The position numbers were made by a program, and so were the translations under genes. Shown here one piece after another: positions 48,594-51,368 of a DNA stretch of 64,000 bases (position 1 is its first letter; the number at the start of each line of letters is the position of its first letter). Origin of the DNA: Acidobacteriota bacterium (GTDB lineage: Bacteria; Acidobacteriota; Blastocatellia; UBA7656); the NCBI GenBank assembly GCA_016201275.1, contig JACQDB010000114.1, positions 32,111-96,110 of the forward strand, read 5' to 3'. The notes beneath the pieces were generated by a model. That model was not told the DNA's origin and did no database searches. It was given only the letters and a program-made list of their open reading frames with translations.

Positions 48594-48679
48594 GCCGCAC
48601 GTTCATTTCGAGTGATGCCTTGAAACTGGCTCTGGTAGCCGGTTTCGTGTCGCGGTGTGTTCACCTGCCTAACGCTTCC
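48594..48679. repeat. dispersed structured repeat family, copy R2 (modules ccgcacGttcatttcgagt / tgaaactggctcYgtagccggtttc / cctaacgcttcc)
   Basis: Shares modules with 8271-8310, 49945-50135, 51131-51368. Confidence 0.8.
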
Positions 48680-48847
48680 ATCAGCAATCAAGTAAATGCT
48701 GTCGTGTTGCTTGATCAGTTTGAAGTTCAGACGATGCCCACATATCACCGAGGGGCGTCCTTTCAATACAGCGGTTCGGTTTCTACCACAAGTGGCGAGT
48801 CTCCCTTGCGCGCTCTGATTTAAATTACTTGAGGTTTTGAGGAATGG

Positions 48848-48942
48848 AGTAGGGGCAGGGCTTGTCCCCGCCCGGATTTTGCGAAGCACAATGCTGGTCA
48901 TCGCCTGCGGCGATCCGGGCAGGGACAAGCCCTGCCCCTACT
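48848..48942. repeat. 30-bp-arm near-perfect palindrome (agtaggggcagggcttgtccccgcccggat ... atccgggcagggacaagccctgcccctact), 35-nt loop; candidate bidirectional terminator between convergent genes
   Basis: Arms reverse-complementary with one mismatch. Confidence 0.85.
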
Positions 48943-48971
48943 GATGTCAACAAACTTAGATTCCAATGTAT

Positions 48972-49784
48972 TTAGTTGGACTGCAAAGTAATGATCACTT
49001 TACCGCCGTTTCGTGAAAAAGCGCGTTGCGCGTCGCAAATTCGTGAAGGCTGGCAAGTCGGATTGGTGGGGAAACCTGGGCAGACTGGGCTTCCCACCAG
49101 TTGAATGCAGTCTGTGCAGTCTTTGGGATAGACGCCCGGATTGCCGGTGTTTTTCCCCAGCGGCTTTGGCACGATTTTGGTAATCGCCTTATTGGTGTTT
49201 GACACCTTCCAGCCTCCGCCACCCTGCATCGTCATCGTCACTAGATAATTGAATCCGTTGACCAGACTGACATCAACATCTTCCGCTCCGGCTGATGGGT
49301 TAAGCGTGAATTCAGCCGTCGTGTAGCCGTTCGGAAACGCCGCATCGGGACAAGCGGGATAACCGCCAAAAGTAACATTGCCGCTGATGCAGGTTTGCGG
49401 AATATTCGGGAAGGTTTTGGATTTACCCGCCGCAAGCGTGAATTGACACTTTCCGGCGTAGGGCTTTTGCGACGGATTTTCAATTACTTGATCGCAAAAA
49501 CCTGCCGCCTTCAACTGGTCGGCAGTGAGCGGCGGATTACTGGCATTGCACGCCCCGCCGAGCGCTGCCAGTACGACAAAGACTTGCATGACTTTTTTCG
49601 TGTTGTTGGTAATGACCAGACTCGTGCGTGTGGGCGCAGCCTCCAAGGCCGCCGCCGCTTTGCTCTCCGGTGAACTGACCAGAGCGTGACTTTGCGAATT
49701 GCTGCTTGTGCTGAAGCCAGTAAATATTGCGAAGCCAAAGATGACCAGCGCAATCAACGCATATACAGCTTTTGATGGTTTCAT
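48972..49784 (-). CDS. thaumatin-like family secreted protein
   Basis: N-terminal TM/signal anchor; AEFTLNPSAGAEDVDVSLVNGFNYLVTMTMQGG closely resembles the thaumatin core (LAEFALN...D.SLVDGFN.P); multiple Cys pairs. Confidence 0.6.
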   Translation of the reverse strand: MKPSKAVYALIALVIFGFAIFTGFSTSSNSQSHALVSSPESKAAAALEAAPTRTSLVITNNTKKVMQVFVVLAALGGACNASNPPLTADQLKAAGFCDQVIENPSQKPYAGKCQFTLAAGKSKTFPNIPQTCISGNVTFGGYPACPDAAFPNGYTTAEFTLNPSAGAEDVDVSLVNGFNYLVTMTMQGGGGWKVSNTNKAITKIVPKPLGKNTGNPGVYPKDCTDCIQLVGSPVCPGFPTNPTCQPSRICDAQRAFSRNGGKVIITLQSN

Positions 49785-49944
49785 AATCTTGATCTCCTCG
49801 AAGATGATGGTTAAGAATTTTGGGTTTCAACTTGGCAAACCTCTAAGGTTTGGTTGCAAGTTGACGGAGCAACTTTGAGAAATTTCATTTTTCGTGCAGG
49901 AGCCTCCCTCAAGTGGTGAGTTGTCCTCTTGCCTTCCAGCCTTT

Positions 49945-50135
49945 CGCCGCACTTCTGGTTTGCGCTGCCCGTTCATTTCGAGTCACTGCGAAGCCGACGA
50001 CTCGCGCTGCACCTTCATTGTGAGTGACGGCGAAACTCAATGCTTTCGTCGTCCTCTCATTTCGCGTGATGCCTTGAAACTGGCTATGGTAGCCCGTTTC
50101 GTGTCGCGGCGCGATTTTCCGCCTAAGCTTCGCGT
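49945..50135. repeat. dispersed structured repeat family, copy R3 (two tandem sub-copies)
   Basis: cgttcatttcgagtcactgcgaagc..., ctcatttcgcgtgatgccttgaaactggctatggtagcccgtttcgtgtcgcgg, cctaagcttcgcg. Confidence 0.8.
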
Positions 50136-50425
50136 TCAGCGTAGGGCGCGAACGGCATTGCCAGTATTGCCTGTCTTTTCGACCTTCAAAGATAAAAATA
50201 GGGCTTGGCGATGATAGACAAAACCAAAATGGCGAATCCCAGATAGCTGTTAGGTTTCGCTTGCTACACGACGTGAATTGCGACTTCGCCAAGTCATCAA
50301 TTGAGCGATAAAGACTACCGCCAGTCGCTGGTATTCTATTTTGCCTAACCATCAGGTTCACAGGGCGCGCACGACGGCCTCGAAAGGAACGCCCAAGCTC
50401 AGGTGTGCGCGCTCCTATGCAACGG

Positions 50426-50950
50426 CTAGATCGGCGGCTCGTCTGGCAGGTAGGGGATCATCCCACGGCGATAGGCCTCTTCTTGTACCGCGCGTGGCAT
50501 ATACCGAGCATCAACGATCATTCCGTTGACCGTGAGTAACCACACCAGCGGATTGTCGGCCAAGCGACTCGGTAGGCACCAGTTAGGATCGAACTGACCG
50601 CGCACCTTCAGTATCTGTCGAACCTGTTTGCTTTTCGCTGACCCTGAACTTGAACTCAACCCGAAAGCCGCACATAGATCGTCTGCCCGCATATAGGGCG
50701 TCTGGCTTTTGTCGAAGAGAAAGTTCACCATCCCCACCGTGTAAACGATGCCGCACGCCCACGTCCGAGGTTTGCCGCCCATCAGCGGCGAAGGTCGTTT
50801 ACGCGCCAAGGCGGCTGCCATTGCTCGGCACATCTGTGCATACTCCTCGTCAAGGTGATCTCGGCATACCTCGTTTGTCATCGCAATAATTTCCTGATAC
50901 GTCGCCTCCATGTGTTCCGGTACACTCTCGGATTTGCCCTTCTTCACCAT
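50426..50950 (-). CDS. hypothetical cytoplasmic protein (no recognisable domain)
   Basis: 174-aa ORF flanked by repeat copies R3 and R4. Confidence 0.5.
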   Translation of the reverse strand: MVKKGKSESVPEHMEATYQEIIAMTNEVCRDHLDEEYAQMCRAMAAALARKRPSPLMGGKPRTWACGIVYTVGMVNFLFDKSQTPYMRADDLCAAFGLSSSSGSAKSKQVRQILKVRGQFDPNWCLPSRLADNPLVWLLTVNGMIVDARYMPRAVQEEAYRRGMIPYLPDEPPI

Positions 50951-51130
50951 AGTTGTTCTCCAACCTTTCTACGCGAACGCCGCCGCCTAACGTCTCGCAT
51001 CAGTGGCCGCATGGATGACGACTAACATCGCCAATTCCAGCCATGTGCAACTCGCATACTGCGCTTTGCTGCATTGAGGAGTTAGGCGATTCCCTCAGTT
51101 GGCGAACCTGGCTCTGACGCTCTAGCCTTC

Positions 51131-51368
51131 TGCCGCACCCGCCTCACTTGTTGCTGTCGCCGCACATTCATTTCGAGTAACCGCGAAGCTGATGGCTCTC
51201 GCGGTTAGCTCACCTTAAATCACGGCACAATGCGTTTGCGGCACACTCATTTCGCCTTCCATCACACCGCCTCTCGCCGCCTAGTGCTTTCGAGTTGCGC
51301 CGTGAAACTGGCTCCTGTAGCCGCTTTCAAGGAACAATGCCCTTCCACTTCCGATTGCCTAACGCTTG
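51131..51368. repeat. dispersed structured repeat family, copy R4 (two tandem sub-copies)
   Basis: cattcatttcgagtaaccgcgaagc...ctcgcggtt hairpin; gtgaaactggctcctgtagccgctttcaagg; cctaacgcttgg. Confidence 0.8.

What the first reader, a model, noticed from the sequence alone, without database searches (positions are those of the whole stretch)
48594..51368. Dispersed structured repeat family separating genes downstream of the island (copies also at 8271-8310)
At least four copies are present at 8271-8310, 48594-48679, 49945-50135 and 51131-51368. They share three modules. One is ccgcacRttcatttcgagt followed by a GC hairpin. Another is a stem-loop tgaaactggctcYtgtagccggtttc. The third is a terminal cctaacgcttcc-like box. 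Some copies are internally duplicated. Together they bracket the thaumatin-like gene and the hypothetical gene. This looks like a REP/MITE-like or small-RNA family. Overlapping ORFs in the ORF track (repeated ITRNER peptides) are probably artefacts of the repeat.
Basis: seen in the sequence. Interest (0 to 1): 0.5.

Follow-up and report, generated by a model that had tools for sequence, protein, structure and literature searches.

The report
Non-coding integron cassettes in Acidobacteria
The repeats are three copies of a gene-less integron cassette plus the integron recombination sites (attC) that separate three accessory genes, so this is a small integrase-less cassette array of a known kind in a soil acidobacterium, not a REP/MITE or a demonstrated small RNA.

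Summary
The repeat family is real: 4 hairpin copies against 0 expected by chance. All copies lie on the + strand.

The "cctaacgcttcc" box is the integron core site GCCTAAC/GTTAGGC. A covariance model built only from attC sites of related Blastocatellia contigs finds three attC sites in the window, all on the - strand: 51442-51357, 51087-50985 and 50435-50343. They sit downstream of the three - strand genes (hydrolase, DUF6398, thaumatin-like).

The composite repeat has three parts: the hairpin, 1-6 degenerate 37-42-nt units, and a conserved tail. It starts exactly at the G|TTAGGC crossover point. In relatives it ends with its own conserved 102-nt attC. It is therefore a paralogous gene-less cassette.

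One related contig (L020) carries a true integron integrase (TIGR02249, 474 bits). There, and in a second integron (L029), this cassette is the first one after attI. The window has no intI, so its array is a CALIN with one intact and two decayed copies.

The copy at 8278 shares only the hairpin, which is a separate REP-like intergenic palindrome. The hairpin shows no covariation, and there is no Rfam match or promoter signal.

This is a new member of a known kind. The function of the cargo remains unknown.

The parts
51522..52550 (-). Alpha/beta-hydrolase gene. It is the first ORF of the array. Its status as a cassette is uncertain because no upstream attC/attI was found.
   Evidence: Pfam Abhydrolase_1, 66 bits. 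It is followed by an attC. No attC upstream of it was found with filters off.
51357..51442 (-). attC site (86 nt): R'' TCCTAAC ... R' GTTAGGC, with L-box arms TGGTATGAACCCG / CGGGTTATACCA and one extrahelical base.
   Evidence: CM R1 gives 28.1 bits, E 4e-5, on the - strand only (7.9 bits on +). The single-strand DNA fold pairs the R and L boxes, z -2.9.
51088..51362 (-). Gene-less cassette copy C (intact). Read on the top (-) strand it runs: TTAGGC, hairpin (51328-51304), about 4 periodic units (cores at 51285, 51247, 51168 on +), then the conserved tail ...AGAGCCAGGTTCGCCAACTGAGGGAATC.
   Evidence: nhmmer E 2e-55 with a profile built from other genomes. It is 81% identical over 291 nt to L007. 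The 5' junction is at G|TTAGGC.
50985..51087 (-). attC site (103 nt) belonging to cassette C. It is the window's version of the conserved 102-nt attC: GCCTAAC...GTTAGGC.
   Evidence: CM R1 gives 50.8 bits, E 4e-11 (9.2 bits on the other strand). Inverted repeat I13. Fold.
50426..50950 (-). DUF6398 gene cassette ORF. The cassette spans 50349-50990.
   Evidence: Pfam DUF6398, 145 bits. It is bounded by attC sites on both sides.
50343..50435 (-). attC site (93 nt) of the DUF6398 cassette. R'' is degenerate (GCCGATC) and overlaps the stop codon. R' is GTTAGGC. The L stem GGAGCGCGCAC/GTGCGCGCCC carries an extrahelical base.
   Evidence: CM R1 gives 33.4 bits, E 1.7e-6. Fold.
50128..50342 (.). Unassigned 215-nt spacer between an attC and copy B. 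It may be a decayed small cassette.
   Evidence: No CM hit. The fold of 50121-50254 is not better than shuffles.
49902..50127 (-). Gene-less cassette copy B (decayed). Its R' is mutated to CTTAGGC. It has the hairpin at 50100-50076 and 3 units. The position of its own R'' reads TCCTGCAC, and no attC is detectable.
   Evidence: nhmmer E 4e-23. Junction and tail alignments. No CM hit.
48972..49784 (-). Thaumatin-like gene (cassette ORF).
   Evidence: Pfam Thaumatin, 29 bits, cut-off 27.4.
48584..48673 (-). Gene-less cassette copy A (truncated): G|TTAGGC, the hairpin at 48646-48622, and one unit. It abuts the 3' end of the convergent 4192-aa gene.
   Evidence: nhmmer E 2e-14. 5' junction.
8274..8306 (+). 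Stand-alone 33-nt hairpin CCCTGAAAGTGGCTCCTGTAGCCGGTTTCAAGG between lon and engB. It shares only the hairpin module and is not part of the cassette array.
   Evidence: Not found by the cassette profile or the attC model.

Best explanation
The region 48.6-52.6 kb is an integron cassette array read on the - strand. No integrase lies nearby, so it is a CALIN.

The repeat family consists of two things.
(i) attC recombination sites.
(ii) A paralogous gene-less cassette. On the top strand it runs: TTAGGC, a 25-nt imperfect hairpin, 1-6 degenerate 37-42-nt units with core ACTCGAAATGA, a conserved tail, then its own conserved ~102-nt attC.

This cassette spreads as a unit through integron-integrase recombination at G|TT, between attC and attI or between two attC sites. 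That explains why copies alternate with ORF cassettes and all point the same way.

The window holds one intact copy (C) and two decayed copies (B, A).

Shown: the attC architecture, the cassette boundaries, the link to a bona fide IntI and attI in relatives, and the absence of intI in the window.

Inferred: that the element is hypermobile, or selected to sit at the attI-proximal position, and that N-N tandems collapse to give the alternating pattern.

Unknown: what the cargo does. My leaning is a selfish or neutral hypermobile cassette, with a transcriptional punctuation role second.
For: An attC model was built from 14 sites of other genomes. It has a 7-bp R box, a spacer, an L box with two extrahelical bases on one arm, and 7 covarying pairs. 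It hits the window three times, all on the - strand, within 1.1 kb. Each site is downstream of or between the - strand ORFs.

In the loci, attC hits occur only where the composite occurs. They always lie on the strand opposite to M1->hairpin.

L020 encodes an integron integrase (TIGR02249, 474 bits against a cut-off of 265). It is divergent from the array. An attI with direct repeats is followed by G|TTAGGC and the composite as the first cassette. A second integron, L029, has an IntI 78% identical. It comes from the same sequencing run that yields contigs 100% identical to the window. It shows the same attI|TTAGGCAGGGGAAAAGCGACGTGACAC junction.

In 9 copies, similarity begins exactly at G|TTAGGC, downstream of unrelated attCs or attI. 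The 3' tail is conserved right up to GCCTAAC.

The arrays in L003, L007, L020, L021 and L024 alternate ORF cassette / composite.

tblastn with the IntI finds nothing in the window.

There is precedent in the literature. Highly paralogous non-coding cassettes exist in Vibrio arrays (PMC1382264). ORF-less cassettes are known (PMC8876359, PMC6557892, 10.1101/2023.11.21.568050). Acidobacterial attC sites are known (PMC8352920). The CALIN definition is in PMC4889954.
Against: IntegronFinder's own attC model could not be run. My model comes from the same lineage, and its E-values are rough.

One of the three window attCs has a degenerate R'' box. Copies B and A have no detectable attC of their own. 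No attC or attI was found upstream of the hydrolase gene.

The related loci were retrieved through the hairpin, so the alternation pattern and the frequency of the cassette are subject to ascertainment bias. Three other acidobacterial integron loci (L030-L032) and most of L026 lack the composite.

Mobility and hypermobility are inferred from architecture and were not observed. The cargo function is untested.
Confidence: 0.82

Rival explanations
1. The composite is a REP/BIME- or MITE-like element spread by a transposase (RAYT or IS-derived), independently of the integron.
For: The hairpin module alone occurs in intergenic regions of Blastocatellia MAGs. It is found in both orientations and sometimes in inverted pairs, for example L010 3736/3799. 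One such copy lies at window 8278. The hairpin is an imperfect palindrome without covariation, as REPs are. Its loop is inverted in two composite copies (L021 3485, L024 3001).
Against: The M1 units and tail never occur outside attC-bounded arrays. The boundaries fall at G|TTAGGC, not at TIR/TSD. All copies in an array share one orientation. No transposase is nearby. This reading holds only for the hairpin module, not for the family described.
Confidence: 0.07
2. The gene-less cassette is kept because it punctuates transcription of the array. It would be a promoter for the downstream cassette, an antisense promoter toward intI, or a terminator or mRNA-stabilising hairpin for the upstream one.
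For: Most gene-less cassettes tested in Vibrio and Treponema have promoter activity (10.1101/2023.11.21.568050; PMC6557892). Here the cassette precedes each ORF cassette and is first after attI in two integrons. In a CALIN without Pc, the ORFs need promoters. A weak TTGACG-17-AAAAAT site lies on the bottom strand of one subtype of the 102-nt attC. The same hairpin occurs downstream of ordinary genes.
Against: No sigma-70-like site lies in any window copy on either strand, and promoter and terminator hits are not enriched. The candidate promoter is absent from the window attC and from the second attC subtype. No T-run follows the hairpin. In-silico promoter prediction is reported to be unreliable for such cassettes.
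Confidence: 0.25
3. The cassette encodes a structured small RNA, as reported for cassettes of the Xanthomonas campestris integron.
For: The sequence is conserved over its whole length between genomes (81% over 291 nt against L007). There are local hairpins such as AACCGCGA/TCGCGGTT and GGCGAA/TTCGCC, with some apparently compensatory variants. Copy C folds better than shuffles (z -3 to -4). Precedent is cited in PMC8876359.
Against: No Rfam family matches. The hairpin shows no covariation. The L020 copy folds no better than shuffles (z -0.7/-1.1). The pairing that would extend the hairpin is not conserved. The unit number varies from 1 to 6. No promoter or terminator was found.
Confidence: 0.12

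Closest known systems
Paralogous non-coding (gene-less / ORF-less) integron cassettes, e.g. the family with 45 copies in the Vibrio vulnificus CMCP6 array (Boucher et al. 2006, PMC1382264)
   Same: There is no conserved ORF. The cassette has its own attC and occurs in many copies within arrays. It is conserved over its full length between related species and absent elsewhere. The same two explanations are open: selfish or regulatory.
   Different: The host is a different phylum (Acidobacteriota, Blastocatellia). The internal architecture differs: a REP-like hairpin plus a variable number of 37-42-nt degenerate units. It alternates regularly with ORF cassettes that carry heterogeneous attCs. 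It is first after attI in the two complete integrons seen.
CALIN: cluster of attC sites lacking an integron-integrase (Cury et al. 2016, PMC4889954)
   Same: There are three attC sites on one strand within 1.1 kb. No intI or intI pseudogene lies in the 64-kb window. The cassettes are of unknown or accessory function.
   Different: Two of the six cassette-like units have lost recognisable attCs, so the array is partly decayed. It lies directly downstream of rpoC in the same orientation.
Vibrio cholerae repeats (VCRs), i.e. attC sites first described as a dispersed repeat family
   Same: A repeat family that separates single genes turned out to be integron recombination sites.
   Different: Here the conspicuous repeat is mostly cassette cargo (hairpin plus units). 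The attCs of the ORF cassettes are heterogeneous.
REP/BIME elements
   Same: The 25-33-nt imperfect palindrome also occurs alone in intergenic regions, in both orientations and in inverted pairs. It shows no compensatory covariation.
   Different: The composite as a whole is not dispersed genome-wide. Genome-wide copy number and a RAYT partner were not established.

Membership tests
Integron attC site | Inverse core RYYYAAC (R'') and core GTTRRRY (R') boxes at the two ends | tested here: met
   51087-50985 has GCCTAAC/GTTAGGC. 51442-51357 has TCCTAAC/GTTAGGC. 50435-50343 has a degenerate R'' (GCCGATC) with R' GTTAGGC.
Integron attC site | Imperfect palindrome with R and L boxes, and extrahelical bases on the '' arm that give a strand polarity | tested here: met
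   The consensus has a 7-bp R box, a 5/6-nt spacer and an L box with 2 unpaired bases on the 5' arm of the top strand (one an invariant A). Seven pairs covary. Window hits score 28-51 bits on the - strand against 8-9 bits on the + strand. The polarity agrees with the intI/attI side in L020.
Integron attC site | Sits at the 3' end of a cassette, with all sites of an array on the ORF strand | tested here: met
   All three sites and all three ORFs are on the - strand. The same holds in the loci.
Integron attC site | Recombined by an integron integrase | not testable with these tools
   The evidence is architectural only. The cassette is joined to attI at G|TTAGGC in L020 and L029.
Complete integron | intI (TIGR02249 / IntI-specific domain) adjacent to the array | tested here: not met
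   tblastn with the L020 IntI gives no hit in the window. No integrase is among the window ORFs checked. This feature is met in the related locus L020 (474 bits).
CALIN | At least 2 attC sites less than 4 kb apart on one strand, with no intI nearby (PMC4889954) | tested here: met
   Three attCs lie within 50343-51442 on the - strand. No intI lies within 11 kb on one side or 48 kb on the other.
Gene-less (ORF-less) integron cassette | A unit bounded by the G|TTRRRY crossover at its 5' end and by its own attC at its 3' end | tested here: met
   Copy C spans 51362 to 50991. The 5' junctions of 9 copies are. The 102-nt attC follows the conserved tail. Copies B and A meet this only at the 5' end.
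Gene-less (ORF-less) integron cassette | No conserved protein-coding frame | tested here: met
   Unit lengths of 37/38/42 nt break any frame. The ORFs differ in strand and frame between copies. An ATG before the attC is present in only 6 of 12 copies.
REP/BIME | Short imperfect palindrome dispersed in many intergenic sites, in both orientations | tested here: inconclusive
   This holds for the hairpin alone in MAG JANMSG01 and others. It does not hold for the composite. The window has only one stand-alone copy. Genome-wide counts and a RAYT partner were not obtainable.
MITE | Terminal inverted repeats of the element itself, flanked by target-site duplications | tested here: not met
   The only inverted termini are the GTTAGGC/GCCTAAC core boxes that belong to flanking attCs. 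There is no TSD. The flanks are attC or attI sequences.
Known structured RNA family (Rfam) | Match to a covariance model, or covariation that supports a fold | tested here: not met
   No Rfam match at the gathering score or at E<=1. The hairpin covariation score is reached by 474 of 500 shuffles.

The most novel reading that the evidence does not exclude
The gene-less cassette is not junk. It would be a selected punctuation or driver module of this integron lineage. Its very efficient 102-nt attC keeps it at the attI-proximal position and between ORF cassettes. There its hairpin and unit array, or an antisense promoter in its attC, would control cassette or integrase expression. Alternatively, its REP-like hairpin, which is shared with ordinary intergenic sites, could offer homology for attaching chromosomal genes to an attC. 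That would bear on the unsolved problem of how cassettes arise.
Probability: 0.15. Interest if true: 0.65.

Novelty: new member of a known kind. Interest (0 to 1): 0.4.

Why it matters
It turns an unexplained repeat family into a specific annotation. The locus is an integron cassette array (CALIN) in a Blastocatellia-type acidobacterium. The thaumatin-like, DUF6398 and hydrolase genes become mobile cassettes.

It also defines a conserved non-coding cassette family outside the Proteobacteria. The family is shared by several soil MAGs and sits first after attI in two integrons. This gives a tractable case for the open question of whether paralogous gene-less cassettes are selfish or regulatory.

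It also explains why assemblies of these genomes break at this repeat.

Tried and rejected
- Rfam at the gathering score over the whole window, and at E<=1 over 48400-51600, gave only a tRNA and a chance miRNA-like hit on the 48848-48942 hairpin.
- Promoter and terminator consensus scans showed no enrichment.
- Global folding of the composite was inconsistent: z -3 to -4 for copy C but -0.7 to -1.1 for L020.
- The covariation test on 34 hairpin copies found none.
- Tandem Repeats Finder does not call the unit array.
- Candidate attCs at 48667-48733, 49790-49910, 50121-50254 and 52728 were rejected. They have no CM hit and fold no better than shuffles.
- A small ORF reading through the 102-nt attC was rejected because its ATG is present in only half the copies.
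- CRISPR-like, group II intron and IS-end readings were considered from the anatomy and dropped. The period is too short, the supposed spacers recur between copies, and there are no matching features.
- The metagenome scan for the hairpin plus flank gave a single contig.
- A look-up of the Lon protein to identify the source genome found nothing.
- Four further IntI look-ups gave loci without the composite, or contigs too short to be informative.
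Full report
OBSERVATION. The repeats are present as described. The 26-nt stem-loop matches four times with at most 3 mismatches, at 8277, 48621, 50075 and 51303. All copies are on the + strand, and none is expected in shuffles. The CCGCACRTTCATTTCGAGT box matches three times against 0.01 expected. The repeat finder groups the same segments. GCCTAAC or its complement is enriched, with 11 matches against 3.9 expected. Six of the eleven lie between 48.6 and 52.7 kb.

The flanking ORFs on the - strand are a thaumatin-like protein (48972-49784), a DUF6398 protein (50426-50950) and an alpha/beta hydrolase (51522-52550).

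RELATIVES ELSEWHERE. A scan of one genome per species with the hairpin pattern returned 25 loci. Most are Acidobacteriota MAGs (Blastocatellia, Pyrinomonadaceae, Chloracidobacterium sp. UBA7656), and 14 contigs come from a single MAG. The copies fall into two classes.
- In the first class the hairpin stands alone, extended to CCYTGAAAST...TTTCARGG. It lies in intergenic regions, in either orientation, and sometimes in inverted pairs. The window copy at 8278 is of this kind.
- In the second class a composite carries 1-6 units, each with a TCATTTCGAGT core spaced 37, 38 or 42 nt apart. The hairpin follows, then GTGTCRCGGCGYGTTC.CCT and GCCTAAC. The three window copies at 48.6-51.4 kb are of this kind.

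THE TERMINAL BOX IS THE INTEGRON CORE SITE. In the loci the composite is flanked by imperfect palindromes of 85-114 nt that start with GCCTAAC and end with GTTAGGC. I aligned fourteen of them, none from the window. They give a consensus with a 7-bp R box, a 5/6-nt spacer, an L box with two unpaired bases on one arm (one an invariant A), and a variable loop. Seven pairs show compensatory changes. From established knowledge this is the attC architecture: RYYYAAC/GTTRRRY boxes, with extrahelical bases on the '' arm. The class 1 aadA1 attC has its extra C and A on the 5' arm of the top strand.

A covariance model of these sites hits the window three times. All hits are on the - strand: 51087-50985 (50.8 bits, E 4e-11), 50435-50343 (33.4 bits, E 1.7e-6) and 51442-51357 (28.1 bits, E 4e-5). 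A weak hit at 12611-12530 is probably spurious. With filters off, nothing else appears in 48.3-53.7 kb, and the same sites score only 8-9 bits on the other strand. Folded as single-stranded DNA, the two best sites pair their R and L boxes with a bulge on the expected arm.

In the loci, attC hits occur only where the composite occurs. They are always on the strand opposite to M1->hairpin.

A REAL INTEGRON IN A RELATIVE. L020 carries a 318-aa ORF that matches the integron-integrase model TIGR02249 at 474 bits (cut-off 265). It is transcribed away from the array. Between it and the array lie a small conserved ORF and an attI-like stretch with two pairs of direct repeats. That stretch ends ...CATTTCATG|TTAGGC, followed directly by the composite as the first cassette and then its 102-nt attC. 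This fixes the top strand independently of my reading of the extrahelical bases.

A second integron, L029, has an IntI 78% identical. It comes from the sequencing run SRR12113411. That run also yields contigs 100% identical to window 48913-51275. L029 shows the same junction: attI, then G|TTAGGCAGGGGAAAAGCGACGTGACAC, and then the contig ends in the repeat.

THE COMPOSITE IS A CASSETTE. In nine copies, similarity starts exactly at G|TTAGGC. What lies upstream is an unrelated attC or an attI. At the other end, a conserved tail (...GCAAGAARTGAGGCGTGTGC...AGAGGAAGGTTCGCCA...) runs up to the GCCTAAC of a conserved 102-nt attC. The unit therefore has the boundaries of an integron cassette.

It has no conserved reading frame. 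Unit lengths are not multiples of three, ORFs differ between copies, and an ATG before the attC is present in only 6 of 12 copies.

Arrays in L003, L007, L020, L021 and L024 read: ORF, its own heterogeneous attC (sometimes decayed), composite, 102-nt attC, next ORF. The cassette ORFs there are typical accessory genes, such as PIN, GNAT, AHSA1-like and unknowns.

THE WINDOW ARRAY. Read on the - strand, the order is:
1. hydrolase ORF
2. attC 51442-51357
3. cassette C (51362-51088) with its attC 51087-50985
4. DUF6398 ORF
5. attC 50435-50343, which overlaps the stop codon
6. a 215-nt unassigned stretch
7. cassette B (50127-49902), with R' mutated to CTTAGGC, the R'' position reading TCCTGCAC, and no detectable attC
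8. thaumatin-like ORF
9. a 30-bp inverted repeat
10. cassette A (48673-48584), truncated after one unit and abutting the 3' end of the convergent 4192-aa gene.

A profile built from non-window cassettes finds exactly these three copies, all on the - strand. tblastn with the L020 IntI finds nothing in the window. By the definition of Cury et al. (PMC4889954) this is a CALIN. It lies directly downstream of rpoC in the same orientation. A 1-kb AT-rich non-coding stretch separates the two.

WHAT THE CARGO DOES. This remains open.
- There is no Rfam match.
- The hairpin shows no compensatory covariation. The score is reached by 474 of 500 shuffles, and the two central pairs are mismatched in 13-19 of 34 copies.
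- Global folding is better than shuffles for copy C but not for the L020 copy.
- Some inter-unit stems vary in a compensatory-looking way (GGCGAA/TTCGCC, AGCGAA/TTCGCT, CCGCGA/TCGCGG), but many units have no stem.
- Sigma-70-like and terminator-like sites are not enriched. The only recurrent candidate is TTGACG-17-AAAAAT on the bottom strand of one attC subtype, and it is absent from the window.

The literature offers the same alternatives for analogous elements. Boucher et al. found highly paralogous non-coding cassettes in Vibrio, up to 45 copies, conserved between species. They proposed either selfish elements or a regulatory function (PMC1382264). Gene-less cassettes of Vibrio and Treponema often carry promoters (10.1101/2023.11.21.568050; PMC6557892). 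Some Xanthomonas cassettes encode small RNAs (PMC8876359). Acidobacterial attC sites are already known (PMC8352920).

The cassette has its own highly conserved attC. It is first after attI in both informative integrons, and it alternates with ORF cassettes. I therefore favour a hypermobile cassette that reinserts often. Under that view, tandem copies would collapse, which yields the alternation. This is inference.

The sample is also biased, because the loci were retrieved through the hairpin. Three other acidobacterial integron loci and most of a nine-attC metagenomic array lack the cassette.

VERDICT. The REP/MITE reading is replaced by integron attC sites plus a paralogous gene-less cassette in a partly decayed CALIN. 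Only the hairpin alone is REP-like. The small-RNA idea is unsupported but not excluded. This is a new member of a known kind, of moderate interest.

Noticed in passing
window 8228-8362: The stand-alone hairpin (8278-8302) sits inside a 135-nt imperfect palindrome made of heptamer repeats. GTCCGTA/GCCCGTA x4 lies on the left and GACGAAG x4 on the right, between lon and engB. Folding gives z -2.6 (+) and -3.7 (-). Similar heptamer-flanked hairpins occur in L002 (~1800-1930) and L006 (~7000-7130).
   Followed up: partly
window 48848-48942: A 30-bp, 97% complementary inverted repeat with a 35-nt loop lies downstream of the thaumatin-like gene. A 44-nt piece matches L006 5578-5621 at 91%, so it looks like another dispersed repeat family.
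   Followed up: partly
window 53321-53430 and 10605-10642: A 38-nt tandem repeat (2.9 copies, 98% identical) with the internal hairpin GCGGTCAAAGACCGC lies just downstream of rpoC. A related single copy lies at 10605. None was found in the fetched loci.
   Followed up: partly
window 52551-53470: A stretch of about 1 kb with no ORF and about 40% G+C (the window average is 52%) lies between the array and rpoC. It contains a 30-nt inverted repeat (53125-53206) built of 10-nt direct repeats ACACCGATAC. No attI, attC or intI remnant was detected.
   Followed up: partly
L020 2452-2799; L029 127-534; L034 73-450; L033 2-292: A conserved small ORF (115-135 aa, ...KLVCVRYRYDE..KRYKTVELI.EE..W.PK...) sits between intI and attI in this integron lineage. 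It has no Pfam or NCBIfam match.
   Followed up: partly
L029 1-60 (Logan SRR12113411): A complete integron platform comes from the same sequencing run that contains contigs identical to the window. Its contig ends inside the gene-less cassette right after attI. The window's organism may therefore carry an active integron elsewhere.
   Followed up: partly
L020 4491-5676: A PIN-domain ORF lies between the hairpin/first unit and the last units/attC of a gene-less cassette. This is a fused or interrupted cassette.
   Followed up: no
L021 3485-3509; L024 3001-3025: In two composite copies the hairpin loop is inverted (ACAGG instead of CCTGT) relative to the flanking units. This suggests template switching or inversion at the palindrome.
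   Followed up: no
window 11122-11222 and 12228-12328: A 101-nt direct repeat at 98% identity, with the copies 1106 nt apart. A weak attC-model hit (20 bits) lies nearby at 12530-12611 and is probably spurious.
   Followed up: no
window 35912-48490: A single 4192-aa ORF ends 100 nt from the truncated cassette copy A and converges on the array. It was not analysed.
   Followed up: no
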